DNA from: Gemmatimonadota bacterium
GTDB lineage: Bacteria; Latescibacterota; UBA2968; UBA8231
Length of the DNA: 64,000 bases
Reading direction: 5' to 3'
NCBI GenBank assembly: GCA_038153405.1
Contig: JAYOYH010000007.1
Coordinates: 43,096-107,095, forward strand
The notes under the pieces are model-generated. The model had not been told where the DNA came from. It worked only from the letters and a program-made list of their open reading frames with translations, and did no database searches. The position numbers and the translations under genes are program-made. This document shows, piece by piece, positions 29,315-52,190 of this stretch (position 1 is its first letter; the number at the start of each line of letters is the position of its first letter).

Positions 29315-29414
29315 GGCCAATCAAGTAGACATTTTTTTACGCTCAATACCTAGGCTCTAATCGCGCAGCGTGCGCGGGGATGACCTAAGGTGTTTTTCTT
29401 CAAGGAGAAGAAGT

Positions 29415-30347
29415 ATGAGGAAGCTGAGCATAGCTGCAGCTGCAGTGGTCGGTTTGGCCGGTGCCGCTTTCGCCCAGGGCGAAAGGGTATTCGACCTGCC
29501 GAAGCTTACCCAGGCACCCGTTCTCGACGGTGTCATTGACGGCGATGAGTGGAACGGTTCGCTCGAACTCGACTGTTCCCCCTCGCGCGTTCAGGCCGAC
29601 GGTGCCGAGTATGGCTGGCGCGACATCGAAGCCCAGCAGAGCGAAGTTAGCGTCAATCAGTTGGTGCAGTCGGATGGCGAAGATGCCGCGATTGCCCGCA
29701 CCGATGCCGACTTCAGCTCGCGCATTTGGCAGGCTTGGGATGACGACGGCCTGTGGGTCGTAACCGCCGCTGCCGACAACGTCCATGACGTTGAGGGTGG
29801 TGACCGCGGTTGGGCCTGGTGGGAGCGCGATAGCCTCTCCCTCTACGTCGATCTGCTCAACGAAAAAGAAGAGTCTGTGCTCAACGGTGAATACACCGCG
29901 CTGAATATCATCAACTTCCAGGCTCGTCCGCTTGAGTCCAGCCCCTACACCGTTTCGTGGGCCCGCACGGTTGAAAATGCGCGTTCTGACGAAGACGGTA
30001 ACGATCCCGACCTCGTCGCTGGTTTCGACAACGGCTATCGCGACGCAGGCGACGAGTTTGGTGGCGAAGCAGACTACGTCCTTGAGATGTTTATTCCCTG
30101 GGAGAACCTGCTCCGTTTTAACCTGCCCGCCACGCCGGTCGTCGGCACCGAGATGGGTTTCTCTTGGCTGCCGCCAGATCCGGATGGCGATGACGCCTAC
30201 GGCGGTCAGTTGCAGTGCTGGGGATGGGCTGATGACCCCTCCAACTACTCCACTTGGATCTTCTCCGACATGCCGGCTGGTCCCGCTGGTGGCAGCACGG
30301 CCGTCGAGAGCGATTCATGGGGTCGCATCAAGACGACGTTCCAGTAA
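29415..30347 (+). CDS. Secreted CBM9-like (carbohydrate-binding family 9 / DOMON-like) protein
   Basis: AAGGAG Shine-Dalgarno 8 nt before ATG 29415. The signal peptide ends AFA-QGE. The mature N-terminus LTQAPVLDGVIDGDEWNGS matches the CBM9 opening motif (P.IDG..DE.W), and later W/D-rich beta strands follow. Confidence 0.65.
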   Translation: MRKLSIAAAAVVGLAGAAFAQGERVFDLPKLTQAPVLDGVIDGDEWNGSLELDCSPSRVQADGAEYGWRDIEAQQSEVSVNQLVQSDGEDAAIARTDADFSSRIWQAWDDDGLWVVTAAADNVHDVEGGDRGWAWWERDSLSLYVDLLNEKEESVLNGEYTALNIINFQARPLESSPYTVSWARTVENARSDEDGNDPDLVAGFDNGYRDAGDEFGGEADYVLEMFIPWENLLRFNLPATPVVGTEMGFSWLPPDPDGDDAYGGQLQCWGWADDPSNYSTWIFSDMPAGPAGGSTAVESDSWGRIKTTFQ

Positions 30348-30512: not shown

Positions 30513-33500
30513 GTGAAAACGCCCTTCAAGGTGAATTTAAGCCAAATAGCACGGTTCTTGGCGTTGGTTGGCTTATGGACGCTTGCCTCCCAGGCCGATG
30601 CGCAGCGCCATCCGGAATCGCAGGGCCCCTTGCCCTACTATCGCGATGAACCGGGGGTGTTGCCGGAGCCTGAATGGCTGCATCGCCCCGAGTTCATCCG
30701 TGGGCCGCGGGATCGCTATGAGCGCGGTGCCAATCGACTGTTTTTGGCCACAGGGGACGACGTTCCCTACCTCAACTACGCCGAAGAGCGCTTTATCCTC
30801 TCGCAGCGAGAGTTAATTCCTTGGTTCCAGCCCAAAGGCCGTTCTTGGAAATTTCGCAACACGCGCTGGGATCGCATGGGCAATTATATGGGATCCCCCT
30901 CCAGTACATCCTCGCCGGCCAGCGGTTATTTGCGGCTGTTTTCTTGGGAGGAAACGCGCAGCGACGACGACGGTTTAGGGCGCAGTTTTATCGACCATCG
31001 CTCGCCTTCGCCGTGGGGGCCGCCTGCCGGATATAACGACGCCACTTTGCGCATAGGTCATTACAACTATAAAGATCTTCACTGGACGGCTACCGTCGGT
31101 CAGAGTGTGCGCAGTTATTTCACGCCGTTGACGCTAGCGCAAAGCCATCTTTCCGTGGCGCGCTTGGACTTCGATAATAAATTCGGCAAAGACCGCGCCA
31201 CGATTCTGCTCAACAGGGGGCGGACGCGGCCCGGTGGCCTCTTTTCCGAATGGGCTTCCGTTGGCGGTGAAACCGAAGATGCCAACCCAGTCCTTATGTA
31301 CGGTCTCCACTACAAGCATCGCTTCGGCCGCTACGCCCAATTTGGCACGACGCTCCTCAACCAGGTTTTGAACCAACCCGGATCCGGCAGCAGCAGTCCT
31401 TTGAAGGGCGATCTGCCCTACGATATGCTCGGTCCGCGCGTGATTCGCGTGTTCATCGCCGATGATTCACCCAGAGAGAGCCTGCACAATGCCAAGGTCT
31501 ACGGCGTCGACATCGTCGTTCGCGGCACGCGCGGAGACCAGCCCGTGACCCTTAGCAACCGCCAGGGGGAATTCTACGACCCGGGTTTAGAGCCGGTAGT
31601 GGCAGGTGGGCGGTTGCTGAGCGGAGATGGGCGGGAGGCGGTCGGTCTTGAAACGGTCGTGTATGAATTTACTATTCCGGGTGATATTACGGCGACCTCG
31701 GCCCGCTTCTTCGCCGATGTCTCCAACGACTATCGAATTGGCATTCGGCAAATCTACGATTTTCCCGGCATTAGCCGCTCGGGCGAGCTCGATTTGGAAG
31801 AGCGGGTTTGGCCCGACGACTTCGTCACCACCGAATCCGTCACGCGCCGCCCCTTTAAGTGGGATATCCAGGAGGGCGAGGAACCCTATTATACGGTGGC
31901 CCGTTCGGAGGGCGTGGGGCAAAATGGTTCAAACCGTCGCGTCGTGCAGTTCGATCACGGCATTCCCACGGGCCAGAACCTATTTTCGTTCGACGCACAG
32001 GCCAATCTCATCGGTCTGAAGTTCAGCGGCGAAATCGTCCGCAACAATCAGAATTACATCTATCCCGTAGGCCGCAATGACGGGCGGCGGACCAGCCACA
32101 AGGCGTTGGCCTATTGGCTCAACGTCAAAAAGGATATTGGGATTGCCAAGCGCTTGGGCGCGCAGCTGGGCGCCGAGTTTTTTCGCTTGGATCCCAGCTA
32201 TAGCGGCGGCTATGACAGCCAGCGCGGCGGCATGGCCTTCCACTTAGATCTGCAGGAATCACCGGGTGGGCGCGTGAAGTCGGATACGCAGGAGTACGGA
32301 CTGGTCGAAGACAACGACGACGACGATCAGTGGCCCGATGATTTTGTCGAAGATACAGCCTCGCCGGGACGCCTTTCTTACCCCGGTTGGCCCAACGCAT
32401 CCGTATATCCGGGCTTGGACGAAAATCTCGACAATATTCCCGACGTCGACCGCAACGAAAACTTTGTGCCCGATTGGAACGAGGCATTTCTCACCTACGA
32501 TGTCGATCCGCCAGAGTTTGTCTACGGAATAGACTTTAACAACAACGGCATGCCGGATTTTCGCGAGAACGACGACTTGCCCGACTATCCTTATCGCCGG
32601 GATCAAAAGGGACGCCACTTCTTCCTATTGCTTGACCGCTTGGGCGGCTGGGGCAAATCCATTTCCGCTGGCTACTATAAGTCGAACGAGATTGCTGGCG
32701 GGACTGAGGCCAAAAGCATGTACCTGCGCTATGCTCTCGAAAAGCAGCGAGATGGGGTGGGGAGTTTACAAATCAACATCGATACCAAGATCGTAGAGGA
32801 CAATATTCAAGACGATAGCTACGTGTATATCGTCCCGCCCAACGACGACGATGTCATTCCCTGGCTCAACAAGCCGGACCATCATCCCGACGTTGCCGGT
32901 CGCTACCGTCCTGCAACGCCCGATCCGCTGCTGATGCGCGACAGCTGGGTCAATACCGCTTATATCGACGCCGATTACCTGAAGATTGCGAATATGCGCA
33001 TTCACAATGCGCTGCTGTGGACGCGCAACAGCATGTCCGAGATTCCCCTTGAAGGAGGCGGAGATGGCGAGTTGTTGCAGGCCGAAGACGTCCGCTCGCG
33101 CCTCATCGTGATCAACAAAGTCGATCGAACCTGGTTGCTTAAGTCCATCGCGATTTCGACCAAGTTCAAACACCGCTTAATCTACGAAAATGTCGACAGC
33201 GAAGAAGATCCGCGCATATCAGCTTCCGATTTTATTCCCATCGTGATGGGGGAGTATGCGCTGACGCCCAAGACCCGATTGGTGCTGGGCGCACAGGGCA
33301 TGCCTTTTTTGCCCATGAAGCACTGGGATAGAGCCAATAAAGACGGCACTTATTCTCAGACCGACTACGCCTTCATGTACAAGATGCGCTCGGAGTATTT
33401 CGGTTTTGAAAACGACTTCTTCTTCGGCTATTTGCTTACGGATAGGCAGCACACTCGATTGCGCGACCGCGACTTCAATCGCGGCACGTTTTTCGTCGAA

Positions 33501-33518
33501 GTCATAACGCCATTCTAA
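30513..33518 (+). CDS. Large (~1000 aa) predicted outer-membrane beta-barrel protein with an acidic Ca-binding-like insert (paralog A)
   Basis: The GTG start at 30513 is preceded by GGGGAG and gives the signal peptide MKTPFKVNLSQIARFLALVGLWTLASQADA. The C-terminus ...FFVEVITPF carries the terminal Phe typical of OM beta-barrels. It is a strong paralog of 37552..40482. It lacks TonB-box/plug motifs, so it is not a classical TBDT. Confidence 0.7.
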   Translation: MKTPFKVNLSQIARFLALVGLWTLASQADAQRHPESQGPLPYYRDEPGVLPEPEWLHRPEFIRGPRDRYERGANRLFLATGDDVPYLNYAEERFILSQRELIPWFQPKGRSWKFRNTRWDRMGNYMGSPSSTSSPASGYLRLFSWEETRSDDDGLGRSFIDHRSPSPWGPPAGYNDATLRIGHYNYKDLHWTATVGQSVRSYFTPLTLAQSHLSVARLDFDNKFGKDRATILLNRGRTRPGGLFSEWASVGGETEDANPVLMYGLHYKHRFGRYAQFGTTLLNQVLNQPGSGSSSPLKGDLPYDMLGPRVIRVFIADDSPRESLHNAKVYGVDIVVRGTRGDQPVTLSNRQGEFYDPGLEPVVAGGRLLSGDGREAVGLETVVYEFTIPGDITATSARFFADVSNDYRIGIRQIYDFPGISRSGELDLEERVWPDDFVTTESVTRRPFKWDIQEGEEPYYTVARSEGVGQNGSNRRVVQFDHGIPTGQNLFSFDAQANLIGLKFSGEIVRNNQNYIYPVGRNDGRRTSHKALAYWLNVKKDIGIAKRLGAQLGAEFFRLDPSYSGGYDSQRGGMAFHLDLQESPGGRVKSDTQEYGLVEDNDDDDQWPDDFVEDTASPGRLSYPGWPNASVYPGLDENLDNIPDVDRNENFVPDWNEAFLTYDVDPPEFVYGIDFNNNGMPDFRENDDLPDYPYRRDQKGRHFFLLLDRLGGWGKSISAGYYKSNEIAGGTEAKSMYLRYALEKQRDGVGSLQINIDTKIVEDNIQDDSYVYIVPPNDDDVIPWLNKPDHHPDVAGRYRPATPDPLLMRDSWVNTAYIDADYLKIANMRIHNALLWTRNSMSEIPLEGGGDGELLQAEDVRSRLIVINKVDRTWLLKSIAISTKFKHRLIYENVDSEEDPRISASDFIPIVMGEYALTPKTRLVLGAQGMPFLPMKHWDRANKDGTYSQTDYAFMYKMRSEYFGFENDFFFGYLLTDRQHTRLRDRDFNRGTFFVEVITPF

Positions 33519-33523
33519 TCACG

Positions 33524-34285
33524 GTGAATGCGATGCCTCTGTTGAACTATACCGGCATACTCGCGGCTCTGTTGATCGCGGGATGCGCGCTTCCTCCGCA
33601 CTCTGTCCTTAAGTATCAGGTGCAGGCTTTACCCATTATCCCCGCGGGTGAATCGGTCTTTTACGAAGATCCGGTAGACAGCACCATTGTTTGGAGCAAA
33701 GAGGGCCTACAAATCAAAGTCCGGTTTTACAACGACGACATGCTCGATGCCCGTTTTGATCCGAGAGTGAGCCCCTATACGCTGACCGGATGGAGCGATC
33801 CAATCTTGGGGTACACGCCGCCGCTGTGGACGACGTTTGAAATCACGGTGATCAACCGCACGCGCGAACGCGTAGAACTCGACCCGACACAGGCCATACT
33901 GCGACTGGACAATGGCAACCATCTCTATTGTCGTCAAGGCGTTGGGGTTTGGAAGACGCTGCCGCACTACTACGACTACAGCTATCTGAAGTGGAGTGGC
34001 CGCCAGGGCAACGTCGAGTTTTATGCCAATACGGACCGTAACGCCATTTGGAACCGCACGGAATTTCAGCGCGAAAAGCCCGTGCGCAAAGGGCGCAAAT
34101 ACACGGGTATGCTAACCTTTCCTCGGCTGCCCAATGACGTCGAGTCGTTCACCCTTGAAATCAACGATTTCATCTTGGCCTATGACAGTGCCGAAGCCGG
34201 TTTTGGCAATCCGATAGAGTTTACTGATATACACTTTGACTTTACAGTGAAGCAGGGAGTGGTCACCGTGGAGAGGAGTCGCTAA
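33524..34285 (+). CDS. Lipoprotein, uncharacterised family (paralog of 45422..46216)
   Basis: Lipobox LIAGCA. It shares ..F.ITV.N.T....E.DP....L....G..L.Y.. and a C-terminal ..DF.L.(F/Y)D(S/A)...P....F....F.V.QGVV motif with 45422..46216. Confidence 0.65.
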   Translation: MNAMPLLNYTGILAALLIAGCALPPHSVLKYQVQALPIIPAGESVFYEDPVDSTIVWSKEGLQIKVRFYNDDMLDARFDPRVSPYTLTGWSDPILGYTPPLWTTFEITVINRTRERVELDPTQAILRLDNGNHLYCRQGVGVWKTLPHYYDYSYLKWSGRQGNVEFYANTDRNAIWNRTEFQREKPVRKGRKYTGMLTFPRLPNDVESFTLEINDFILAYDSAEAGFGNPIEFTDIHFDFTVKQGVVTVERSR

Positions 34286-34954
34286 ATGAGAGCGCCTGCT
34301 CTATACATGCGCGCGTTTGCCGTGTTTGCTGCGTTGGCTGCCGTTGTTGGCTGTGGAAATCTGAAATACCAGGCGCTCAAGGGGACCAGCGTGGAGAATC
34401 CACCGCAGGCTCCGGTGAAGGTCTACGTAAAGGAGTTCCCCGTTACGAGCAAGGCCAATGTAATCGATCCCAATGCCGCGCTGGGGGACGGCGGTTACGG
34501 TGGAGGCGGGCGATCGATCAATGCGCTGGCGGAAGTGGGCAATGCCATCATGGTCATATCGAGGCCCTCGCGCATCGAAGACCTAACCCGTTCCCTACTG
34601 CGCGAACTGCGTCCGCGGCAGCTGCGCATCTTTTCCGAGTACGATCGGGTAACAGACTTGAAGGGCGTTCGCAATATTGACAACCCATTTGTCCTCGTGC
34701 CGCCGGAAGACGAGTCGGCGCAGCTCGAAATTAGTGGCACTGTCTACTTGTTGAGCGAACGCGTCGAGCAGCGTTTTTCGCAAAACAGCAGCAGCGCGCG
34801 CGTGGAGCTTGTAGTGCGTGATGTTGCCAGCGGGGAAGAGGTTCGCTTGCCGCCGACGGCGGCCGGTATAAGCATGACCTATAACTCGAAAGAATTGGAA
34901 GAGGCGATCGCCATTTTCATCTCCACGCTGCTAACCCAAAAGACGCTCTTTTGA
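34286..34954 (+). CDS. Lipoprotein, hypothetical
   Basis: Signal with lipobox VVGCG, and a Gly-rich linker DGGYGGGGRS. It is translationally coupled, with the ATG 1 nt after the upstream stop. Confidence 0.55.
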   Translation: MRAPALYMRAFAVFAALAAVVGCGNLKYQALKGTSVENPPQAPVKVYVKEFPVTSKANVIDPNAALGDGGYGGGGRSINALAEVGNAIMVISRPSRIEDLTRSLLRELRPRQLRIFSEYDRVTDLKGVRNIDNPFVLVPPEDESAQLEISGTVYLLSERVEQRFSQNSSSARVELVVRDVASGEEVRLPPTAAGISMTYNSKELEEAIAIFISTLLTQKTLF

Positions 34955-34955
34955 G

Positions 34956-36602
34956 GTGGTGAGGAAGATTGCCTTGGTATCAATGGTAACCATGCTGACG
35001 GCCTTTCCCAGCGCAGTGGATGCTGCAAGCCAAACGGTGACTTGGCGTTGGGATGGCGAGGATGCGAGTGTCTTGCAGTTGCTGCAGACAAGCGTTGACG
35101 TCGGCCGCGGAGTTGTGTTGGACGTGCTCTCGCCAGACAAAAATATAGCTTTGGGAGCGATCGCGCGGAACGATTTTGGTCTGCGTGAACCGCTGACGGA
35201 CGGGGAGGTCTCTCTGGTTGCCAGCGAGTGGATATCCAATACGCCGAACGTATTCGGTCGATATTTCACCGTTGACCTTGGTGTAAACCGTGCGATAACG
35301 CGGGTGCGGGTGCGGCCCGGTCAAACCGCGATTAACCAACCGGAATACTACATCCGCGGATACAGAGTGGAAGCGGCCTTGGAAAATGATCCGGATATTT
35401 GGCGTCTGCTGGCCGAAGAGCGCACGAACTTCAATTTGCTAATTGACACCGGTGCGGACTCTACGTGGGCCGTTGTGGCCGATGGTCAACTCGCTTCTCG
35501 TTTGGGCCGCTACGTGCGCTTTACCATTACCCGGCAGGACCGCAGCAATTGGGTGGCAATTGGCGATATCGAGGTGTTCGGCGAGGGCGTTGAGGCTGAG
35601 GGTACGGCTCAATACACCTGGTTGCCGCAAGCACCGGTGAATGTGGGGCGCATACGGTGGCAGACCGAAGACCGTGCAGAGGGATTTAGTCTGTCTGCCA
35701 AGGGCGGTGATGAAACGTGGTCTACCGTCAACCCGCTGGAGTCCGATCGGTCTTTTGCAGGAGCTGAACCGATCGACTCGCTGCAATTTATGGCCTCGCT
35801 GTCGACTCACGATCCGTTTGCCACGCCCGTTTGGCGCGGGGTAGAGGTCGAATACGACACGCGCTTAGTCGCCGACGGGGCGTTGGGGGCGGTTGAGCCC
35901 AACGCGGTTGCCCGCGGGGAGTGGGCCGAGATTAACTACAGCATTGAACTGGCACTGCGAGCGGATAATTACGGTGTGGATAGGGTGCTATTGGACGGAA
36001 CGGCGCTGGTCGTTGATGGGCTGCGCGTGGATGGCGTCTTGCTGAGCAATAATGAGTATAGCTACAGCGCCAACGACGAATTGGGTCAGACTGAGATACA
36101 GATAAACCGCGCGGTCTTGCAGACGGCTCTGCTCCAAATAGAAGGCCGGGGCCTTTTCCTCAACGAGGTAACGGAGATAGGATTTCGCGTTGGCAATGCG
36201 CAGCAGGAAGAAGCCGACGGCTATATTAACTGGCAAAACGGCCGAGAGAGCCCGGTGGCTAGTTGGCGCGTGCGCGCTCAGGGAACACCCGGCGAATTGC
36301 TCGGCGAGATCGAGCTTTCCGAGCGGCCATTCTCGCCCTACGAAAGCAAAGAGCTGACGTTCAAGTTTATCGTCTCCAATTTGAACAACCCAACGGATAT
36401 CGTCCTTTCGCTCTATCGTTTGAACGGCGTGCGGGTCCGGCAAATGCAGCAAAACGGCGGTGCGCGGCCCTATGAATTCCGCTGGGATGGAAGGGATGAA
36501 GGGGACCGATTGGTGGACCCCGGTCTCTACTTGTACGAGGTAAGAGTAGCCGGTGGCGGCGAGAGGAGCGGGCGGCGAGGAACATGCGTTGTCGCCTATT
36601 AG
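34956..36602 (+). CDS. Secreted protein with a discoidin (F5/8 type C)-like domain and a C-terminal FlgD-Ig-like domain
   Basis: The central YVRFTITRQDRSNWVAIGDIEVFGEG is a discoidin-domain signature. The C-terminus YEFRWDGRDEGDRLVDPGLYLYEVRV matches the FlgD Ig-like/T9SS-type C-terminal domain pattern. Start could be GTG 34956 or ATG 34983. Confidence 0.6.
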   Translation: MVRKIALVSMVTMLTAFPSAVDAASQTVTWRWDGEDASVLQLLQTSVDVGRGVVLDVLSPDKNIALGAIARNDFGLREPLTDGEVSLVASEWISNTPNVFGRYFTVDLGVNRAITRVRVRPGQTAINQPEYYIRGYRVEAALENDPDIWRLLAEERTNFNLLIDTGADSTWAVVADGQLASRLGRYVRFTITRQDRSNWVAIGDIEVFGEGVEAEGTAQYTWLPQAPVNVGRIRWQTEDRAEGFSLSAKGGDETWSTVNPLESDRSFAGAEPIDSLQFMASLSTHDPFATPVWRGVEVEYDTRLVADGALGAVEPNAVARGEWAEINYSIELALRADNYGVDRVLLDGTALVVDGLRVDGVLLSNNEYSYSANDELGQTEIQINRAVLQTALLQIEGRGLFLNEVTEIGFRVGNAQQEEADGYINWQNGRESPVASWRVRAQGTPGELLGEIELSERPFSPYESKELTFKFIVSNLNNPTDIVLSLYRLNGVRVRQMQQNGGARPYEFRWDGRDEGDRLVDPGLYLYEVRVAGGGERSGRRGTCVVAY

Positions 36603-37452
36603 AAGCTGGTTGTTGTTCATTAATTGTTTGGGACTCAGTGTCGTAGGGCCAGTCGGCGCCGCGTTTGAAACGGGGGCAGGGGCGTATTCCACTGCGCTGG
36701 GCAACGCTTTTTCGGCCGGGGTAGAATCGGCCGAAGGAGTATGGTTTAATCCTGCGACCTCTGCTAGGCTGCGTTTGCCGCGCGTCGCCATAACGCAGGG
36801 TGCGCTCTACTCAGGGCTGAGCGATCGCCCAAGCATCAGCGCTGCAGCCGGTGTTTGGCCCCGGCGCTGGGGCACGCTGCAGGCGGGTTTTTCCGGCCTG
36901 TGGGCAGATGATTGGGCTGAAAGCCAGTGGCTATTGGGCTACGGTCGCGTGCTGCACCCTCGGTTGTCGGTTGGAGCGCAGCTGCGGACGGCCAGTTGGA
37001 GTTCGGGGCGCTATGGGCAGCGCCGCTGGCTGGCCACCGTCGGTGCCCTATACGAAGCGGGGTGGGTCAGTTCGCGTTCCTACGTTCGCTTTTCGGCTGT
37101 CGTGGCCAATATAGGCCGGCCCGATTCCAAGTCGGCCAGGGCGTCGGGTATGCCCGCGCGTTCGCATACGTTGGGCATGCAGGTTCGAAATGCAACGCGT
37201 GCCCTCTTGCTCGACTTGGTCGAACAGGGCGGCGATTGGCAGGCGCGCTGCGGGTATGAATCGGTGCTGCGCGCCGAATTAAAGCTGCGGCTTGGAGCGA
37301 CGGTATTGCGGGGTGATACCGTAAATAAGACCGGGCATATAGGACTGGGGTACGAGTGGAAAAACGTGCATTTTGACTATGCGTTTTCGCGTTCGTACGA
37401 CCTAAACGACTTCGGGGCCGACCACCGTTTTGGCATTGGCTATGCTTGGTGA
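36553..37452 (+). CDS. Small predicted outer-membrane beta-barrel protein with a FadL/PorV-like Gly-rich N-terminal motif
   Basis: GAGAYSTALGNAFSAGVESAEGVWFNPA resembles the FadL/PorV N-terminal motif (G.G.a....GAia.DA....NPA). The C-terminal ...RFGIGYAW carries a terminal aromatic. The likely true start is TTG 36610, giving the signal peptide LLFINCLGLSVVGPVGAA. Confidence 0.5.
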   Translation: MAARGAGGEEHALSPIRSWLLFINCLGLSVVGPVGAAFETGAGAYSTALGNAFSAGVESAEGVWFNPATSARLRLPRVAITQGALYSGLSDRPSISAAAGVWPRRWGTLQAGFSGLWADDWAESQWLLGYGRVLHPRLSVGAQLRTASWSSGRYGQRRWLATVGALYEAGWVSSRSYVRFSAVVANIGRPDSKSARASGMPARSHTLGMQVRNATRALLLDLVEQGGDWQARCGYESVLRAELKLRLGATVLRGDTVNKTGHIGLGYEWKNVHFDYAFSRSYDLNDFGADHRFGIGYAW

Positions 37453-37551
37453 GGTTTCGGACGCAACGAAAAGGCAAAAGGATTCGCTGAGCGGAGGCGA
37501 ATGTCCATGAAAATAGAGCGGTTTTTATACTTCTCGGGTGAGGGAGCAATT

Positions 37552-40482
37552 ATGGAGCACGCGAATCGCGGTTATCGCTTGAGGTTACACGTCCTCGGGG
37601 TGCTTTGCGCGCTGGTCGCTCTGGGCGATGTCGGGTTTGCGCAGACGCACCTGCGCGATCGCGACTTTCTCAATCTGGGCTCGACAGAGGGCTATCTCAA
37701 CTACGGCCGCACGGAATACGAGCCCTATCCCGAACTCATTAGTGCGCGCAATCGCTACGACCGCCTGGGCAATTTTCAGATGCGCGGCCACAGGACGTTC
37801 ACCTGGGAACTCCAGCGTCCTGGGTTTAGCGAAATCAGCACGCGCTCTGAGCAGTATCTGGGTTGGTTTAACAACCTCATCATTATGAATGATACTTACC
37901 GGGGTTGGGATTTCGGGGTGACGGTTGGTGAGGATATCCGCACTAAACTCACCGATTTGACCTTCCACGATCCGCGCTACTACGGTATTCGCATGGACGG
38001 CGCGTCGGCCGATAACCGCTTTACGCTACTGCTTAGCCAGGGCGGCACGCAGGCCACGCAGTCGCCCAATCCCAAGTTTTCCACTTTTCAGGGCGGCAAA
38101 GAGCGTTCGTCTGTGCTGATGTTTGGTGGACACTGGGAGACGCAGTTGGGCAATATCCTCAAACTGGGCGCTACTTATTTCAACCACCATATGTTGGATA
38201 CGTTCAATGACAAGGGCGCCTTTGTCCGCGGCGATACACCCTATAGCATGCTGGCGCCCGCCTTTATTACGATCATCGTCGAGGACGATTCGCCCGATGC
38301 CAATCAGGTCGGTGCCGTCGTATACGATGTGGGTATCGAAATTCAGGCCGAGTCGCTGGGGCAGCAAATCCGCCTTAGCAGCTTGGAAGGCGATGCCAAC
38401 TACGATCCCACTCTGAGGCCGACGGTAGAAGGCGGCCTTCTCAACGCAGACGGCGGTCGTCACGTCAGCGGCGACGGCCAGCGCGTATTCTACACTTTCC
38501 GGATGCCCGAGTTCGCCCTGCCCGACGCGGCCGACTATGCCAACGATCCGTCCGCGGCGTTAAACGGACTCACGGTCAAATCGGTTCGCTTTCTGGCCGA
38601 TGTAGCCGGCGATTACAGAATATTGGTTAAGCAGCAGCACCTCTTCTTCAATGAATCGGCCTACGAGAAGAACCTCGAAAAAGAGTATGTGCCCGGCGAT
38701 AATAGCTACGTCAATCCATTCACCGGTTTGAAAGGAGCGGATGCCCTGCTGAGTCCGCAAGAAGCCTACGAAGCGGGGGAAGAAATATTCAAGCAGTGGC
38801 CGGTGCCGCCCAACCAGTCGATTAGCCAACTCAACCCCTTTATGCAGTTCAAATGGGATCTGGAAAACCCAGAAGAGGTGGCCTATACCGTCGTCCGCGC
38901 CGAGTCCAACTCAACCGATCTGAGCAACCGCCGCATCGTGAGCTTTGACTACGGCATTCCCACCGGGCAAGCGCTATTCGGTCTCAATAGCCACCTGACG
39001 TTGGGTGGATTTGATGTCAAGGCCGAGTTCGTTACAAATCCGCAGTATTTTATCTACCCGATTGGGAATAATGCGGGCAAGCGATTTCAGAAGAAGACGT
39101 TGGCCTACTTCATCAATGCGGTCAAGCGCTACGAGTCGCTGTCCTTTGGCGTTGAACTCTTCCAACTCGACCCCGACTACGGCGGCAATTACGACAGCAT
39201 TCGCGGTGGCGTGCCCTTTTTTACTGATGTGGCGCAAACCGGTTCGCAAATGCAGGAAATATTCGTCATGACCGACAACGACGACAACGATCAGTGGCCC
39301 GACGAACTCATCGTCGAACTGCCTAGCGCAGACCGCCAAGATTCGGGCGTTTTTCCCGGCCTCGACGAAAACCAGGATCTGGTGCCCGATACCGATCAGA
39401 ACCTCAACGGCATCGCCGACTGGACCGAGCCCATTATTTTTTACGATGCCGATCCACCCGAATTCGTCTACGGCCTCGACTTCAACAACAACGGCGTAGT
39501 CGATTTTCGCGAAAACGATGGGTTGCCCGATTACCCCTATCGCCGTGATCGCCGCGGGTTCCACCTCTTCACGCGCAAGGACGGCCTCGGCTTGTTGGGT
39601 AAGACCCTTTCGCTGGGCTACTACGACACCAAGGAAGTGGCTGGTCGCGGCAGGGCCAAGGCCATCTACGCGCGCTACGAGTACAGCACGAACTCACCGT
39701 ATTTGGGCCGTATTCGCATCAACGAGGATATCAAACGCGTAGAAGACAGTATTCGCGATGACGTCTATATCTGGCGCGATCGCAGCGTGCAGCGCATCGA
39801 CTCGCCCTATCCGCACATCACGCCGCGTCAGATAGAGGAGCGCGACCTCAACTCGCAGTTGCTGCCGCCCGACAGGGACCCGTTGCTGATGCGCAACAGC
39901 CTAGTCAATACCCTCTTTATCGAGGCACGCACCAGCCCCATCATCGATTTTAATTTGATCAACAACATTCAATGGCTGCGCAACAGCCAGTCAGCTGACG
40001 AGTTTGACGACGGCGTAGTACAAGAAGAGGACGTCCGTTCGCTCATCACCATGGTCAATAAAGTCGACTATACGATCCGCGCTGGAAATGTTACGGTAAA
40101 GCCCATGTTCAAGCATTTGCTCCTGCGCGAACACTCGCAAAAGCTCGATCGCGAACAGGGTCAAGGCAGCACGCGCTCGTTTTCCATTTTTACGCCGATT
40201 TTGCGCACCCGTCTCGATCTGACCAACAAATCCTACCTGCAGCTGGGATTTCAGGGGTTGCCGTTCTGGCGCTACACCAAGACCGACCGCGTCGACAGCA
40301 GCCAGAATTTCAAGGAGTGGACTACCGTATTCATGTTGACCAATCGATCGGATTACTATGGTTTTGCGCTGTCGACTCAAATTGGCTGGGAGACTACCCG
40401 CCGCGAGTATGACGACGAGATCAATTCGGCGCTCAACCGCAACAGCTCTACGCTGTTTTTCGATGTGCTGGCCGGCTTTTAA
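37552..40482 (+). CDS. Large predicted outer-membrane beta-barrel protein with an acidic Ca-binding-like insert (paralog B)
   Basis: GAGGGA Shine-Dalgarno before ATG 37552. The signal peptide is MEHANRGYRLRLHVLGVLCALVALGDVGFAQT and the C-terminus ...LFFDVLAGF. It shares long blocks with paralog A, for example NDD(D/N)DQWPDE, GLDEN.D..PD.D.N, DPPEFVYG(I/L)DFNNNG..DFRENDxLPDYPYRRD and PLLMR(D/N)S.VNT. Confidence 0.7.
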   Translation: MEHANRGYRLRLHVLGVLCALVALGDVGFAQTHLRDRDFLNLGSTEGYLNYGRTEYEPYPELISARNRYDRLGNFQMRGHRTFTWELQRPGFSEISTRSEQYLGWFNNLIIMNDTYRGWDFGVTVGEDIRTKLTDLTFHDPRYYGIRMDGASADNRFTLLLSQGGTQATQSPNPKFSTFQGGKERSSVLMFGGHWETQLGNILKLGATYFNHHMLDTFNDKGAFVRGDTPYSMLAPAFITIIVEDDSPDANQVGAVVYDVGIEIQAESLGQQIRLSSLEGDANYDPTLRPTVEGGLLNADGGRHVSGDGQRVFYTFRMPEFALPDAADYANDPSAALNGLTVKSVRFLADVAGDYRILVKQQHLFFNESAYEKNLEKEYVPGDNSYVNPFTGLKGADALLSPQEAYEAGEEIFKQWPVPPNQSISQLNPFMQFKWDLENPEEVAYTVVRAESNSTDLSNRRIVSFDYGIPTGQALFGLNSHLTLGGFDVKAEFVTNPQYFIYPIGNNAGKRFQKKTLAYFINAVKRYESLSFGVELFQLDPDYGGNYDSIRGGVPFFTDVAQTGSQMQEIFVMTDNDDNDQWPDELIVELPSADRQDSGVFPGLDENQDLVPDTDQNLNGIADWTEPIIFYDADPPEFVYGLDFNNNGVVDFRENDGLPDYPYRRDRRGFHLFTRKDGLGLLGKTLSLGYYDTKEVAGRGRAKAIYARYEYSTNSPYLGRIRINEDIKRVEDSIRDDVYIWRDRSVQRIDSPYPHITPRQIEERDLNSQLLPPDRDPLLMRNSLVNTLFIEARTSPIIDFNLINNIQWLRNSQSADEFDDGVVQEEDVRSLITMVNKVDYTIRAGNVTVKPMFKHLLLREHSQKLDREQGQGSTRSFSIFTPILRTRLDLTNKSYLQLGFQGLPFWRYTKTDRVDSSQNFKEWTTVFMLTNRSDYYGFALSTQIGWETTRREYDDEINSALNRNSSTLFFDVLAGF

Positions 40483-40526: not shown

Positions 40527-43500
40527 ATGCTTCTTGTGAATCTTCTCGTGATTGCCATAATGGGCGGAGCTGTGGGGTTGACGTCGCGCTATTTTTCCCC
40601 GCAAGAGCTGCAAGATCGCTTTGGCTTTGGGCAAAAGCTCTATGCCTTGGGCGACTACGAGAAGGCCTTGCCTCATTTCGAAGCCGTTATGGCGACGAAA
40701 AACAACATCACGATCAACGTCGAAGATGTCACTGTTACTCTCGACGAGTTTATCTTGCCCGTGCGAGTTGCTGCCACCTATCAGCTGGGCAATACGCACA
40801 ACAAGCTGGGGCAGGACAAACTGCGCCGCTCGGGGTTCTTGCGCGCAGAGGGCAAAGAGGATCAAGCCGATCAGCGCTACCAAGAGGCATTGGAGGAATT
40901 CAAGCGCAGCTTGGAGTATTTTGGCGAAATAAGCGCTGGCGAAGAAATCGATGAGCGCACGCGGGTTATGGCGCAATTCCAGACGCTTGAAACCAACTAC
41001 AAGCTCAAGCAATTTGATAGCGTGATTGAAGAGGGGGAACGCCTGCTCGAGCAGTTTCCCAACAGCGTGTATGAGACGGCCGCTTACTATAATATCGGCT
41101 GGTCGTATTACGAATTGGGTCAATACGGCAACGCTATCGACAACTTTAAAGAAGTGATAACGCTGTCGCCGCGCGGTTCGCACGCCGACCGCTCATACTT
41201 TCAGATCGCCGAATCGTACGGCAATTTGGAAGAGTACGACCAATCGCTGAACTACCTGGACCGGCTCATACGGCGCTATGACTTTTCCGCGATGTCGGAA
41301 AAGGAACTGATAGAAATGGCCAGCCTCAAGCTCAAAGGCCTCGTCGAGGAGACCTCGCGTGAATTGGTCGCCAAAGCACAGCTCAAGCGCGGCGATATTT
41401 TTTCCCGGCGCGGCGATGTAGATATGGCGCTGGCGGCCTATGCCAATGTGCCGGAAAAGTATCCGATGGAGACGGCACTAGTCGAGAATGCCTACATTCG
41501 CTCAGCCGAACTGATCAACGAAACGCGCGGCACCGACGCGGCGCTTATCGCCTACCAGAGCGCCATTGAAAACGTTGACGACAAGCGCTTTCAGGCCAGA
41601 ACTCAGCTGACGATCGCGCGCTTGCTGTTTGAAAAAGATGCCTTTGAACGGGCGGCCGAGCAGTACCGCATCTTCCTCAGCGCCTACGGAGACGTGGCGG
41701 CGCGCATTGGCTTTGCCGAAGACAAGGTGCTCTTCCGCATCAGCCAGTGTCACCAAGCGCTGATTCGCACGCACTTGGCCAACGGCAATGCCGATGGGGC
41801 AGACGAAGCAACGGCTGAGGCGTTGAGGATCTACGACGAGCTGCTAGTCAAACACGGCGATAGCCCGCTGTTGCCCGACGTCTACTTCTCGCGCGGTTAC
41901 GCCCGCCAGCTAATAAAAGACGCAGGAGCAGCCGACGACTTCACGCATATGGTTAGTACCTACCCCGATCACCCAGCCGCCCCCAATGCGCTTCTGCAGC
42001 TTGCGCGCATCGACTTTGAGGCGGGTAAGTTCCAGAGGGCACAGGCGACCTATGAGCGATTGCTGACGGACTTTCCCGAATCTGACCCGATCAATCCCGC
42101 GCGTATGGAACTGGGTCTGTGCTTCAAGAATATGAACGACCTGACCCGCGCAATCGCCTCCTTTGAATCGATTGATTCGCAGTGGAGCCAGTGGGGCAAA
42201 GTGCAGGCTGAGTTGGCCGACCTCTACGTGCGTTCCGGCGATCGCTCGGGTGCCAAGCGCGTGCTCGAGCGCGCTATGGAGCAGGTTGACAGCGATGAAC
42301 TGCGCGGACAGCTCGTTTACGTAAAATCGCGCGTCCACTTCACCGAGGCCGAGTATCGCGAGGCCATTGAAGGCTTTTCGCAAGCGCTGGAACTGCCTAT
42401 TCGCGAAGATATTTACAACGGTTCGCTTCTCTCGCGGGGCAGTGCATACTACGAACTGGCCAAAACGCTCGATGCCAAGGGCGATACGGCGCGCGCGCGC
42501 GGCGAATACGAGTTGTCTTTGATTGATATGAAAGCGCTCCTTGAGCGCGACCCGCCAGCCAACATAAAGGACAGCGCATTTCGTACTTTGGGTGCGGGAA
42601 TGATCCGTCTGCAGCGAGAGGACGAGGCCGTTCGCTACTACAAAGAGCTCATCGCATCCAGCGATGATCAGCAGCAGCGCGCGACGTTTCAAATGCTGCT
42701 GATGGAGCTCTATTTTGATCAGCAGGCCTTCGAACAGTCTGAAATCTTTGCCCGAGAGCTCCTCGAAATGGATTTCGAGGACGACAACAACGCCGGCTAT
42801 TACCGCAAAGAACGCGCCTATTCAATAATTGGCAACGCGCTTGTTCAGCGCAAAGATTATGCGGAAGCCAGTAAGATTTTCGCCGAAGGGCTAGCCCAGT
42901 ATCCACAGTCGGGTGAGAGCGCCAACCTGGCCTTTTCCAAGGCGTTTTCTGATTTCAATGGCGGCGATTACGAACTGGCCGCTAAGGGGTTTGCTTTTTA
43001 TGTCAATTCGTTTTCGAACGATCGCAATGCCGTACACGGCCAGTACTACCTGGCCCATAGCTATCAAATGCTCACCGACTTTGATAGCGCGGCGACGTCA
43101 TTCAGTGAGCTAATGGATCGCTATCCTCGCTCGAACTATACCGAAGAGGCGATGTTCTTAGTCGGGGAAAATTACTACAACAAGCGCGATTTCGCCGCCG
43201 CTTCGCAGGCCTATTCTACGCTGCTAGAGCGCTTTCCGAAGGGAAGGTATGGCGACGCGGCTCTGTACGCCAAGGCCTGGTGCGAATTCGAGCAAGAAGA
43301 TATGGAAGCGGGAGTGGCTTCAATGGCCCAGCTCGTAAGCAACTTTCCCCAAAGCGAGTTTGCCGCCAAAGCTCAGTTTACGGTTGGCGATTACCACTAC
43401 AACAACCGCAACTATAAAGAGGCGCTCAAAGCCTACTCTGTCTTGATCGAGTCCTATGCCTCTACGCCGGAAAAACAGCGCGCAGAAGCTCTCGTCGAAG

Positions 43501-43799
43501 AACTGAGCGAAATCGAGGCGAGTTTGGATTACGCTCAGGTTATGGGCAAATTCGAGTCAAAAGACTATGAAAATGCCATTAGGGGTTTTAAGGAAATTAT
43601 CGAGAAATATCCCGATACCTATACGCAGCTGGCTGCCTATTGCAATCTGGGGCTCACCTACGAGATCCTCAGGCAGTGGCCTCAAGCTGTCGAGAATTAC
43701 GATCAAACCCTGGCCAGAGGGGAGGGCGATATCGAAAATTCGGACGTCGTCAATTTTGCTCGTCTGCACCGGGATTGGATCGTCGAAAACAGGCTATAA
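40527..43799 (+). CDS. 1090-aa TPR-repeat protein with an N-terminal membrane anchor
   Basis: An N-terminal TM (LLVNLLVIAIMGGAVGL) followed by more than 20 TPR-like units throughout (YNIGWSYYELGQYGNAIDNFKEVI and many others). Periplasmic scaffold-like. Confidence 0.8.
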   Translation: MLLVNLLVIAIMGGAVGLTSRYFSPQELQDRFGFGQKLYALGDYEKALPHFEAVMATKNNITINVEDVTVTLDEFILPVRVAATYQLGNTHNKLGQDKLRRSGFLRAEGKEDQADQRYQEALEEFKRSLEYFGEISAGEEIDERTRVMAQFQTLETNYKLKQFDSVIEEGERLLEQFPNSVYETAAYYNIGWSYYELGQYGNAIDNFKEVITLSPRGSHADRSYFQIAESYGNLEEYDQSLNYLDRLIRRYDFSAMSEKELIEMASLKLKGLVEETSRELVAKAQLKRGDIFSRRGDVDMALAAYANVPEKYPMETALVENAYIRSAELINETRGTDAALIAYQSAIENVDDKRFQARTQLTIARLLFEKDAFERAAEQYRIFLSAYGDVAARIGFAEDKVLFRISQCHQALIRTHLANGNADGADEATAEALRIYDELLVKHGDSPLLPDVYFSRGYARQLIKDAGAADDFTHMVSTYPDHPAAPNALLQLARIDFEAGKFQRAQATYERLLTDFPESDPINPARMELGLCFKNMNDLTRAIASFESIDSQWSQWGKVQAELADLYVRSGDRSGAKRVLERAMEQVDSDELRGQLVYVKSRVHFTEAEYREAIEGFSQALELPIREDIYNGSLLSRGSAYYELAKTLDAKGDTARARGEYELSLIDMKALLERDPPANIKDSAFRTLGAGMIRLQREDEAVRYYKELIASSDDQQQRATFQMLLMELYFDQQAFEQSEIFARELLEMDFEDDNNAGYYRKERAYSIIGNALVQRKDYAEASKIFAEGLAQYPQSGESANLAFSKAFSDFNGGDYELAAKGFAFYVNSFSNDRNAVHGQYYLAHSYQMLTDFDSAATSFSELMDRYPRSNYTEEAMFLVGENYYNKRDFAAASQAYSTLLERFPKGRYGDAALYAKAWCEFEQEDMEAGVASMAQLVSNFPQSEFAAKAQFTVGDYHYNNRNYKEALKAYSVLIESYASTPEKQRAEALVEELSEIEASLDYAQVMGKFESKDYENAIRGFKEIIEKYPDTYTQLAAYCNLGLTYEILRQWPQAVENYDQTLARGEGDIENSDVVNFARLHRDWIVENRL

Positions 43800-43835
43800 C
43801 ACGCACCCTACAAGCGCTACAATGGGAGGTCTAAG

Positions 43836-44504: not shown

Positions 44505-44519
44505 AAGAGGAGAAGGGGG

Positions 44520-44966: not shown

Positions 44967-44968
44967 CC

Positions 44969-50105: not shown

Positions 50106-50228
50106 CCCGATTATAGATCGTTATTTATTCGCTGTTTCCACGGCAATACGCCGCTCCACCGATCCCCTTGAGATGCGTTAATGGATGTGAAATGCGAGCC
50201 ATGCTGCGCACCATTTTGACGAACCGCC

Positions 50229-52133: not shown

Positions 52134-52190
52134 TGCGCCGTAGCTGTTGGGGCTATGGTCCCGAATGGGAAGGTTTCGAGGGAGTTGGCT

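What the first reader, a model, noticed from the sequence alone, without database searches (positions are those of the whole stretch)
30513..40482. Two paralogous ~1000-aa OM barrels share a highly conserved acidic insert
The pair is 30513..33518 and 37552..40482. The best-conserved stretch between them is an Asp-rich block: NDDDDQWPDD...GLDENLDNIPDVDRNENFVPDWNE...DPPEFVYGIDFNNNGMPDFRENDDLPDYPYRRD in A (nt ~32290-32610) against NDDDNDQWPDE...GLDENQDLVPDTDQNLNGIADWTE...DPPEFVYGLDFNNNGVVDFRENDGLPDYPYRRD in B (nt ~39265-39560). The D-x-D-x-N/D-G-x-x-D spacing resembles thrombospondin-type-3, OmpA-like or EF-hand-like Ca-binding loops. This suggests an extracellular or periplasmic Ca-dependent plug or gate shared by both barrels. 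Outside this block the N-termini have diverged, consistent with an old duplication and conserved function.
Basis: seen in the sequence. Interest (0 to 1): 0.75.

Follow-up and report, generated by a model that had tools for sequence, protein, structure and literature searches.

The report
Outer-membrane barrel pair with calcium-type loop
Two related genes encode large outer-membrane barrel proteins of an unnamed but widespread family whose best-conserved part is a very acidic, calcium-binding-type surface loop, and across many uncultured bacteria these barrels sit next to surface-protein, TPR and ExbB/ExbD motor genes, which points to an undescribed cell-envelope machine.

Summary
A (30513-33518) and B (37552-40482) are full-length paralogs: 35% identity, E 4e-158. 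Identity peaks at 62-80% in the Asp/Asn-rich block against about 30-40% elsewhere. Both have signal peptides and a C-terminal Phe. An AlphaFold model of B (pLDDT 88, pTM 0.86) matches only outer-membrane beta-barrels. The nearest match is Deinococcus SlpA, followed by MtrB, LptD and TonB-dependent receptors.

The block is not a low-complexity linker. About 23 positions are at least 90% conserved across 105 relatives that share only 25-40% identity overall. These positions form four acidic sites, two with exact EF-hand loop spacing (DxNxNGxxDxxE). Strict EF-hand and thrombospondin type-3 patterns are not met. Strand parity places the block in a 127-residue extracellular loop. Whether it plugs the lumen could not be tested.

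The family has no Pfam or NCBIfam model and no PDB sequence relative. It has 724 clusters in a 1.84-billion-protein library and is often multi-copy in Latescibacterota, Poribacteria and Gemmatimonadota. It recurs in the order T9SS type-B-like CTD protein, then optionally a PorP/PorV-like barrel, then the barrel, then a giant TPR protein, then often ExbB-ExbD-ExbD.

Most likely this is a Ca2+-stiffened surface cap or dock on a new barrel family. Calcium binding and function remain inferred.

The parts
30513..33518 (+). Barrel A (1001 aa from GTG 30513). Signal peptide at 30513-30602 ending ...SQADA. C-terminal beta-signal ...FFVEVITPF.
32304..32618 (+). Acidic block of A (residues 598-702, net charge -21). 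Site I DNDDDDQWPD at 32310-32339. Site II DENLDNIPDVDR at 32418-32453. Site III DRNENFVPDWNE at 32448-32483. Site IV DFNNNGMPDFRE at 32532-32567.
37552..40482 (+). Barrel B (976 aa from ATG 37552; database gene calls start at 37507). Signal peptide at 37552-37644. C-terminal ...LFFDVLAGF. AlphaFold model with pLDDT 88 and pTM 0.86, about 24-26 transmembrane strands.
39169..39549 (+). Long loop of B (residues 540-666) between strands 530-539 and 667-677. Strand parity places it on the extracellular side. It contains the acidic block.
   Evidence: (secondary structure), own parity count
39262..39549 (+). Acidic block of B (residues 571-666, net charge -21). Site I DNDDNDQWPD at 39274-39303. Site II DENQDLVPDTDQ at 39364-39399. 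Site III DQNLNGIADWTE at 39394-39429. Site IV DFNNNGVVDFRE at 39478-39513, followed by NDGLPDYPYRRD.
29370..30347 (+). CBM9-like protein upstream of A, conserved in syntenic loci.
33524..34285 (+). Lipoprotein (253 aa, ...LIAGC) directly after A. Paralog of 45422-46216.
34286..34954 (+). Second lipoprotein (222 aa, ...VVGCG), no family match.
34956..36602 (+). 548-aa protein with an F5/8 type C domain and a FlgD_ig / T9SS-CTD-like C-terminus. It is the partner type found upstream of family barrels elsewhere.
36553..37452 (+). 299-aa PorV/PorP-like small barrel immediately upstream of B. NCBIfam PorV_fam E 4.8e-8, below the cut-off. Homologous to the Pfam PorP_SprF protein at the same position in L004.
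40527..43799 (+). 1090-aa TPR protein with an N-terminal hydrophobic helix, immediately downstream of B.
43836..45418 (+). ExbB (43836-44504), ExbD (44520-44966), ExbD (44969-45418).
45422..46216 (+). Lipoprotein (264 aa, ...LSGCA), paralog of 33524-34285 (34% identity, E 3e-40). Not a TonB.
46345..47985 (+). PpiC-type (SurA-like) peptidyl-prolyl isomerase, recurrent near family barrels.

Best explanation
A and B are paralogous members of an unnamed family of large outer-membrane beta-barrels, about 850-1110 aa and about 24-26 strands. This part is shown.

The family's signature is a block of about 95 residues with net charge -21, lying inside a 127-residue loop. The strand pattern puts that loop on the cell-surface side. 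The block carries four fixed acidic sites. Two have the 1-3-5-6(Gly)-9-12(Glu) spacing of EF-hand loops. The other two are overlapping Asp/Asn clusters of the thrombospondin-type-3 kind.

The most likely mechanism is inferred, not shown. Extracellular Ca2+ (or another divalent cation) is chelated at these sites and folds an otherwise structure-less loop into a rigid knot. That knot caps or partly fills the wide barrel, or forms the docking surface for partner proteins. The metal-stabilised insertions that line the pore of Deinococcus SlpA are the precedent.

The barrels work within a conserved envelope module. The gene order is a surface protein with a T9SS type-B-like C-terminal domain, optionally a PorP/PorV-like small barrel, this barrel with a partner lipoprotein, a giant TPR protein, and often an ExbB-ExbD-ExbD motor and a PpiC chaperone. 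I therefore favour a role as the outer-membrane anchor or exit platform for the adjacent CTD-bearing surface proteins.
For: Paralogy and barrel nature:
- BLASTP of A against B gives E 4e-158.
- Both have signal peptides and a terminal Phe.
- The AlphaFold model has pLDDT 88 and pTM 0.86.
- Foldseek ranks SlpA first (E 6e-9), then MtrB and LptD.
- Weak SlpA_C Pfam hits occur in 6 of 52 members.

Block as family signature:
- About 23 positions are at least 90% conserved in 105 divergent members.
- The distant 1108-1117-aa subfamily (21-24% identity to B over the longer alignments) matches best in the block.
- The DNA motif D-x-N-N-N-x3-D-x2-E-[ND]-D recovered 118 loci in GTDB genomes, of which 110 are family members.
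- omega is 0.02-0.04, with the lowest dN in the block and normal dS.

Ca-loop character:
- Two loose EF-hand-type loops occur per protein in 104 of 105 members, against 0.04 in shuffles.
- The block is confidently modelled (pLDDT 72-96) yet almost entirely coil, as expected for ion-wrapped loops.

Sidedness: from the C-terminus, all turns assigned as periplasmic are 2-7 residues and all loops assigned as external are 6-244 residues. The block falls in an external loop.

Precedent: SlpA pore insertions are stabilised by Asp-coordinated metal sites (PMC9388160).

Module:
- Identical synteny in L002, L003, L125 and L126.
- Distant loci L004, L005, L006 and L001 keep the barrel next to various of CTD-bearing or PorP_SprF proteins upstream and giant TPR or ExbB/ExbD downstream.
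- Homologs of the 548-aa protein lie upstream on the same strand in 55 of 64 cases.
- Upstream neighbours: CHU_C in 30 of 72 and FlgD_ig in 34 of 72.
- Downstream neighbours: TPR in 28 of 76.
- Type B CTD proteins are known to be anchored by adjacent PorP-like barrels (PMC9143113).
Against: - No ion binding was measured or modelled.
- Strict EF-hand and TSP3 signatures fail.
- The tools give no coordinates, so whether the block lies in the lumen, on top of the barrel or at an interface is unknown.
- The strand count and the parity at the N-terminal end are uncertain. I count 23 clear strands.
- The barrels have no detectable similarity to PorP/SprF or SprA models.
- A is preceded by a CBM9-like protein without a recognised CTD.
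- ExbB/ExbD next to an outer-membrane barrel is classically a sign of uptake, not of display.
- All genomes are uncultured MAGs, so there are no expression or localisation data.
Confidence: 0.5

Rival explanations
1. Energised uptake channel. The barrels would be functional analogues of TonB-dependent or SusC-like transporters. Surface lipoproteins and carbohydrate-binding partners (CBM9-like, F5/8 type C) would capture substrate and ExbB/ExbD would power import. The acidic loop would be the substrate- or cation-binding site, as with the Ca2+-dependent extracellular loops of BtuB (own knowledge).
For: - ExbB-ExbD-ExbD lies in the cluster here and next to distant members.
- The family is multi-copy per genome, with at least 4-5 loci in single Latescibacterota chromosomes and tandem arrays of 2-3.
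- A partner lipoprotein follows each barrel.
- Carbohydrate-binding domains occur in neighbours.
Against: - No Plug or TonB_dep_Rec Pfam match in A, B or 52 diverse members.
- No recognisable TonB box.
- No TonB/TolA-like gene in the cluster; the ORF after ExbD2 is a lipoprotein.
- L003 keeps the whole cluster without ExbB/ExbD.
- The upstream partners carry secretion-type CTDs.
Confidence: 0.2
2. Structural scaffold. As proposed for D. radiodurans SlpA, the barrel would not be a conduit. It would be an abundant outer-membrane scaffold whose lumen is filled by metal-stabilised insertions and which organises or tethers the envelope through the TPR protein.
For: - SlpA is the closest fold match, and the only Pfam signal is SlpA_C.
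- The SlpA insertions with Asp-coordinated metal sites are the nearest precedent.
- The TPR partner resembles YbgF/BamD-type envelope organisers by repeat matches.
Against: - No SLH domain or coiled-coil stalk.
- The SlpA insertions are lineage-specific, whereas this block is the most conserved part of the family.
- Many divergent paralogs per genome, each paired with a different CTD protein, argue for specific partners rather than bulk scaffolding.
Confidence: 0.15
3. Periplasmic docking element. The acidic block would face the periplasm and be the binding site for the giant TPR protein or the ExbD periplasmic domains.
For: - The TPR gene follows the barrel in 28 of 76 loci.
- TPR domains bind extended peptides, and the block is an extended coil with the invariant motif PDYPY.
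Against: This orientation would put every long loop (up to 244 residues) in the periplasm and every 2-7-residue turn outside. It would also end the chain outside. That is the reverse of all known BAM-assembled barrels (established OMP topology).
Confidence: 0.08
4. Ordinary acidic low-complexity linker with no specific role.
For: High D/N/E content.
Against: - Position-specific conservation of at least 90% at about 23 positions with almost no indels in sites II-IV across 105 divergent proteins.
- Lowest dN along the gene.
- High model confidence.
Confidence: 0.02

Closest known systems
Deinococcus radiodurans SlpA (30-strand outer-membrane barrel; PDB 8AE1, 8AGD, 7ZGX; Pfam SlpA_C PF21620)
   Same: Very large single-chain outer-membrane barrel. 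It is the top Foldseek match (E 6e-9), and SlpA_C is the only Pfam model giving recurrent hits, all weak and below the cut-off. SlpA has large insertions lining the pore that are stabilised by Asp-coordinated metal sites (PMC9388160).
   Different: No SLH domain or coiled-coil stalk. Sequence similarity is below the Pfam cut-off (25 against 35 bits), and a PDB profile search finds nothing. The SlpA insertions are lineage-specific, whereas here the acidic block is the family's invariant core. Genomic context differs: CTD proteins, PorP-like barrels, TPR and ExbBD.
EF-hand and thrombospondin type-3 / dockerin-type Ca2+ loops
   Same: 12-residue loops with ligands at positions 1, 3, 5, 9 and 12, and Gly at 6 (DQNLNGIADWTE, DFNNNGVVDFRE). 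Overlapping Asp/Asn sites and a coil-only fold, as in TSP3 'wires'.
   Different: PROSITE PS00018 and the TSP3 pattern are not matched (0 of 105). No flanking helices, no disulfides, no Pfam hit. The loops are embedded in an outer-membrane barrel loop.
LptD-LptE and TonB-dependent / SusC-like transporters
   Different: No OstA, LptD, Plug or TonB_dep_Rec domains. No TonB box and no TonB gene in the cluster.
T9SS PorP/SprF-type anchors of type B CTD proteins, and the SprA translocon
   Same: The barrel occupies the genomic slot just downstream of type-B-like CTD (CHU_C / FlgD_ig) proteins. A PorP/PorV-like barrel, a TPR protein (sub-threshold PorW/SprE repeat match) and a prolyl isomerase are nearby.
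   Different: No sequence match to the PorP_SprF family (at E<=0.01) in 52 diverse members and none to any Pfam family, including SprA families, in A or B at E<=10. Size is about 1000 aa, against about 300 (PorP) or about 2400 (SprA). The linked motor is ExbB/ExbD, not GldLM/PorLM. The phyla are outside Bacteroidota.

Membership tests
BAM-assembled outer-membrane beta-barrel | Sec signal peptide | tested here: met
   A: MKTPFKVNLSQIARFLALVGLWTLASQADA|Q. B: MEHANRGYRLRLHVLGVLCALVALGDVGFA|Q. Read directly; no predictor was run.
BAM-assembled outer-membrane beta-barrel | C-terminal beta-signal ending in an aromatic residue | tested here: met
   A ends ...FFVEVITPF and B ends ...LFFDVLAGF. Most relatives end in F, W or Y.
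BAM-assembled outer-membrane beta-barrel | Closed antiparallel barrel fold resembling solved OMPs | tested here: met
TonB-dependent transporter | Plug domain (PF07715) and TonB_dep_Rec barrel (PF00593) | tested here: not met
   No Pfam hit in A or B at E<=10, nor in 52 diverse members at E<=0.01.
TonB-dependent transporter | N-terminal TonB box and a cognate TonB | tested here: inconclusive
   No TonB-box-like motif seen by eye in the mature N-termini. No TonB Pfam hit in the cluster. The ORF after ExbD2 is a lipoprotein.
SlpA / SlpA_C (PF21620) | Pfam SlpA_C at or above the gathering score | tested here: not met
   Best score 25.1 bits against a cut-off of 35. 6 of 52 members give weak hits; A and B give none.
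SlpA / SlpA_C (PF21620) | N-terminal SLH domain and trimeric coiled-coil stalk | tested here: not met
   No SLH hit. The model shows no long helices.
EF-hand | PROSITE PS00018 loop pattern and helix-loop-helix | tested here: not met
   0 of 105 sequences match PS00018. The DSSP assignment of the block is coil.
EF-hand | 12-residue loop with O-ligands at positions 1, 3, 5, 9 and 12 | tested here: met
   Sites III and IV are present in 104 of 105 sequences under the loose pattern, 2.0 per sequence.
EF-hand / TSP3 (function) | Actual Ca2+ binding | not testable with these tools
   Needs ITC, Tb3+ luminescence or a structure with ions.
Thrombospondin type-3 repeat | Pfam TSP_3 / DxDxDGxxDxxD with disulfides | tested here: not met
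   No Pfam hit, pattern in 0 of 105, and no Cys in either block.
LptD | OstA N-terminal jellyroll and LptD C-terminal Pfam domains | tested here: not met
T9SS PorP/SprF or SprA | Sequence membership (PF11751, SprA families) | tested here: not met
T9SS PorP/SprF or SprA | Gene directly downstream of a type B CTD cargo gene | tested here: met
   CHU_C in 30 of 72 and FlgD_ig in 34 of 72 upstream neighbours. 55 of 64 homologs of the 548-aa protein lie upstream on the same strand.

The most novel reading that the evidence does not exclude
The barrel family would be the outer-membrane core of an undescribed, ExbB/ExbD-powered surface-display or secretion pathway in Latescibacterota, Poribacteria, Gemmatimonadota and Ignavibacteria. 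That pathway would handle T9SS type-B-like CTD proteins without, or alongside, the canonical SprA/GldKLMN machinery. The invariant Ca2+-loaded acidic loop would be its extracellular gate or cargo dock, and the giant TPR protein the link to the inner-membrane motor.
Probability: 0.2. Interest if true: 0.85.

Novelty: new variant of a known kind. Interest (0 to 1): 0.6.

Why it matters
Large outer-membrane barrels are the gateways of diderm bacteria, and the known large ones (LptD, SprA, SlpA, ushers, TonB-dependent transporters) each define a major envelope process. This is an unnamed family with hundreds of sequence clusters. It has several copies per genome in abundant but uncultured phyla, including sponge symbionts and marine and soil Latescibacterota and Gemmatimonadota.

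Its signature is sharp enough to find members from DNA alone, and its gene neighbourhood is fixed, linking it to T9SS-type cargo and to an ExbB/ExbD motor with no TonB in sight. If the acidic loop is a Ca2+-dependent cap or dock, it gives a concrete, mutable handle for testing how these organisms display or exchange surface proteins. It would also test what the widespread 'TPR-ExbB-ExbD-ExbD' cassettes energise.

Tried and rejected
- Single-sequence Pfam, NCBIfam and PDB searches of A and B found nothing.
- A PDB profile search with 52 members found nothing meaningful.
- The first AlphaFold run, with 41 close sequences, left the block at pLDDT 35-65. Only the 105-sequence alignment gave a usable model.
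- The afdb50 fold library was unavailable.
- A second word-indexed homolog search with the alignment returned the same set as the first.
- A block-only profile search returned only 11 short fragments. It therefore says nothing about whether the block occurs in other architectures.
- The search for related loci with the broad alignment failed for lack of a conserved stretch. It was replaced by a degenerate DNA motif scan.
- PDB sequence searches of the 548-aa protein, the PorV-like protein and the lipoprotein were uninformative.
- Literature searches found no description of this family.
- I first took the 264-aa ORF after ExbD2 to be a TonB. I rejected this because it is a lipoprotein paralog of the ORF after A.
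- I tested whether the 666-aa ORF is a DUF6785 paralog. It is not.
- The low-complexity-linker reading was rejected on the conservation data.
Full report
**1. What is in the sequence**

The two ORFs are real and intact.
- A runs from a GTG at 30513, with GGGGAG upstream, to 33518.
- B runs from an ATG at 37552, with GGTGAGGGAG upstream, to 40482. Database gene calls for B start 45 nt earlier.
- BLASTP aligns A and B end to end at 35% identity, E 4e-158.
- A 40-column sliding identity profile is flat at about 30-40%. It rises to 62-80% over A 633-720 / B 602-690, and it is lowest and gappiest in the first 100 or so residues.
- Each block has net charge -21 and no cysteine. D+E makes up 26% of the block against 12.6% elsewhere in B.

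**2. They are outer-membrane beta-barrels of an unnamed family**

- Both proteins start with a typical signal peptide and end in ...ITPF / ...LAGF, the aromatic-terminated beta-signal of BAM substrates.
- Neither matches any Pfam or NCBIfam model or any PDB sequence. A 52-member profile also finds nothing in the PDB.
- With a 41-sequence alignment, AlphaFold gave pLDDT 71 and left the block disordered. With 105 diverse relatives it gave pLDDT 88 and pTM 0.86.
- The only recurrent Pfam signal in the family is a sub-threshold hit to SlpA_C, in 6 of 52 members.

So the fold class is settled, no known family claims these proteins, and the most distant detectable kinship is with the SlpA-type giant barrels.

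**3. The block is the family signature**

- A profile search of 1.84 billion representative proteins finds 724 clusters at E<=1e-3 and 222 at E<=1e-30.
- In an alignment of 105 members sharing 25-40% identity with B, the positions that are at least 90% conserved are concentrated in the block: D575 N576 D577 D578 D580 D584, P602 G603 D605 D609 D613, D623 E626, G641 D643 N645 N647 D651 E654 D656 D660 Y663 D666.
- A 1108-1117-aa subfamily shares only 21-24% identity with B where longer alignments are obtained, and it aligns best in the block.
Of these, 110 encode family members by a local HMM search. The other 8 lie in unrelated taxa and are the expected chance matches.
- Against a 96%-identical ortholog, omega is 0.021 for B and 0.044 for A. 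dN in the block is 0-0.014 and dS is normal, so selection acts on the protein.

The 'low-complexity linker' alternative is excluded.

**4. Anatomy of the block**

There are four sites (B numbering).

| Site | Motif | Note |
|---|---|---|
| I | D575-N-D-D-x-D580-x-[WYF]-P-D584 | Asp/Asn cluster |
| II | D605-x-[DN]-x-D609-G-x-P-D613 | overlaps site III |
| III | [DN]615-x-N617-x-N619-G-x-P-D623-x-x-E626 | EF-hand loop spacing |
| IV | D643-x-N645-N-N647-G-x-x-D651-x-R-E654 | EF-hand loop spacing; followed by [ND]-D656...D660-Y-P-Y663..D666..G669-x-H671 |

- Sites III and IV have the 1, 3, 5, 6(Gly), 9, 12(Glu) spacing of EF-hand loops.
- The loose pattern occurs exactly twice per protein in 104 of 105 members, against 0.04 in shuffles.
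- The strict PROSITE EF-hand pattern and the thrombospondin type-3 pattern are never matched. There is no Pfam hit, no disulfide and no helix-loop-helix.
- The model shows the block as a confidently placed (pLDDT 72-96) but almost purely coil segment. This is what ion-wrapped loops look like.

My reading is that the block works like a cluster of Ca2+-binding loops but is not a member of either named family. Ion binding itself is inferred.

**5. Which side of the membrane**

I counted hairpins back from the C-terminal strand, which ends in the periplasm in all known BAM substrates.
- The alternating connections on one side are 2, 4, 2, 5, 3, 7, 2, 2, 3, 3 and 2 residues long.
- On the other side they are 9, 7, 10, 13, 49, 6, 127, 9, 244, 18 and 6 residues long.

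This is the classic pattern of short periplasmic turns and long external loops. It places residues 540-666, which hold the block and a small hairpin, outside the cell. A second giant external loop (217-460) contains a beta-sandwich and helices. I count 23 clear strands, so the barrel probably has about 24-26. The N-terminal 80 residues, four short strands with conserved Y48, N50 and G73, are unassigned.

The tools return no coordinates. Whether the block dips into the lumen (plug or gate), caps it or forms a rim could not be determined. The best precedent is SlpA, whose pore is lined by large insertions held by Asp-coordinated metal sites (PMC9388160).

**6. Context: a conserved module**

On the + strand the window encodes, in order:
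- a CBM9-like protein
- barrel A
- a lipoprotein (253 aa)
- a second lipoprotein (222 aa)
- a 548-aa protein with an F5/8 type C domain and a FlgD_ig / T9SS-CTD-like C-terminus
- a PorV/PorP-like barrel (299 aa)
- barrel B
- a 1090-aa TPR protein
- ExbB, ExbD, ExbD
- a 264-aa ORF
- a PpiC-type isomerase

The 264-aa ORF is not a TonB. It is a lipoprotein paralog of the one after A (34% identity, E 3e-40), so the duplicated unit was barrel plus lipoprotein.

The whole arrangement is syntenic in relatives at 55-96% identity, with separate A-type and B-type orthologs. The duplication is therefore old.

Distant members keep the core:

| Locus | Gene order |
|---|---|
| L004 | CTD proteins, PorP_SprF, barrel, TPR, ExbB |
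| L005 | CTD and F5/8C proteins, three tandem barrels, TPR |
| L006 | PpiC, ExbB, ExbD, ExbD, ExbB, three barrels |
| L001 | barrel, ExbB, ExbD, ExbD |

Across the 8-kb GTDB loci:
- Homologs of the 548-aa protein, mainly of its C-terminal 100-300 residues, lie upstream on the same strand as the barrel in 55 of 64 cases, often abutting it.
- Among 72 immediate upstream neighbours, Pfam finds FlgD_ig in 34 and CHU_C, the T9SS type-B secretion-signal domain, in 30. It also finds F5/8C, PorZ-type propellers and PorP_SprF.
- Among 76 downstream neighbours, 28 are TPR proteins and 7 carry CarboxypepD_reg, the domain fused to ExbB in L001.

Single Latescibacterota chromosomes carry at least 4-5 separate loci, and tandem arrays of 2-3 barrels are common.

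**7. Mechanism**

Shown:
- a paralogous pair of barrels
- an invariant acidic four-site block with Ca-loop spacing
- an external-loop position, by topology
- a fixed gene neighbourhood

Inferred:
- Divalent cations fold the block into a rigid element that closes, caps or provides a docking surface on a wide barrel.
- The barrel serves the adjacent CTD-bearing surface protein as anchor or exit platform. In Bacteroidota, type B CTD proteins are held at the surface by the PorP/SprF-like barrel encoded next to them (PMC9143113).
- The TPR protein and ExbB/ExbD supply the periplasmic link and the energy.

Rivals, with my confidence in each:
- ExbBD-energised uptake channel, 0.2. ExbBD, multi-copy expansion, lipoprotein and carbohydrate-binding partners fit. 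The lack of a plug, TonB box or TonB gene counts against it.
- SlpA-like structural scaffold, 0.15.
- Periplasm-facing dock for the TPR protein, 0.08. It contradicts the loop-length asymmetry.
- Meaningless acidic linker, 0.02.

**8. Comparison and novelty**

The proteins are outer-membrane barrels, a known kind, and metal-stabilised loops in giant barrels have a precedent in SlpA. Three things are new:
- a large, unnamed family whose most conserved element is a four-site acidic loop
- a DNA-level signature that retrieves the family with about 93% specificity
- a recurrent genomic triad of T9SS type-B-like CTD protein, barrel and giant TPR protein, often with ExbB/ExbD, in phyla outside Bacteroidota

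I found no paper describing it. I rate it a new variant of a known kind, with interest 0.6. The boldest reading not excluded is that this is the outer-membrane core of an undescribed ExbBD-powered surface-display or secretion route (probability about 0.2).

**9. Limits**

- All relatives are metagenome-assembled genomes.
- Taxon labels are inconsistent. The 96%-identical syntenic MAG is labelled Gemmatimonadota, while most homologs are labelled Latescibacterota.
- Neighbour statistics come from 8-kb slices, so the frequencies are lower bounds.
- There are no ion-binding, localisation or expression data.

Noticed in passing
33524-34285 (+) and 45422-46216 (+): Two lipoproteins of 253 and 264 aa are paralogs (34% identity, E 3e-40). 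One follows each barrel module. They have no Pfam, NCBIfam or PDB relatives, and homologs recur next to family barrels in 13 other loci. They could be barrel partners or plugs in the manner of LptE.
   Followed up: partly
34956-36602 (+) and 36553-37452 (+): A 548-aa protein (F5/8 type C domain plus FlgD_ig / T9SS-CTD-like C-terminus) is followed by a PorV/PorP-like 299-aa barrel. The two ORFs overlap by 50 nt as listed, so the true start of the second is probably further downstream.
   Followed up: partly
40527-45418 (+): A cassette of giant TPR protein (1090 aa, N-terminal hydrophobic helix), ExbB, ExbD and ExbD, with no TonB/TolA-like gene. One syntenic relative (L003) lacks ExbB/ExbD but keeps everything else.
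   Followed up: partly
17510-19195 (+), 21930-23657 (-), 23662-26121 (-): Three FG-GAP / ASPIC-UnbV repeat proteins, one of them fused to TPR repeats, with two further TPR proteins (19217-20533, 20665-21933) between them.
   Followed up: no
48105-52133 (+) and 60796-62802 (-): The strong T-over-A skew (AT skew -0.25 to -0.30) at 48-52 kb coincides with polytopic membrane proteins: an unassigned 666-aa ORF and a DUF6785/DUF6784 protein. A second DUF6785/DUF6784 paralog lies at 60796-62802. The 666-aa ORF is not homologous to the DUF6785 protein.
   Followed up: partly
52155-56810 (+): A 1551-aa fusion of an M28 peptidase domain with an FtsX-type permease C-terminus. It is also present at the end of the syntenic locus L003.
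   Followed up: no
26877-28058 (-): A DUF4159 protein upstream of the cluster. DUF4159 recurs beside family loci in distant relatives (L003, L005, L126, and by phmmer L081, L083, L119, L124).
   Followed up: no
L126 (GCA_038128265.1, JAYPJE010000007.1): The nearest public relative of the window (B ortholog 96% identical, fully syntenic) is labelled 'Gemmatimonadota bacterium', whereas most homologs are labelled Latescibacterota. The phylum label of this lineage looks inconsistent between records.
   Followed up: no
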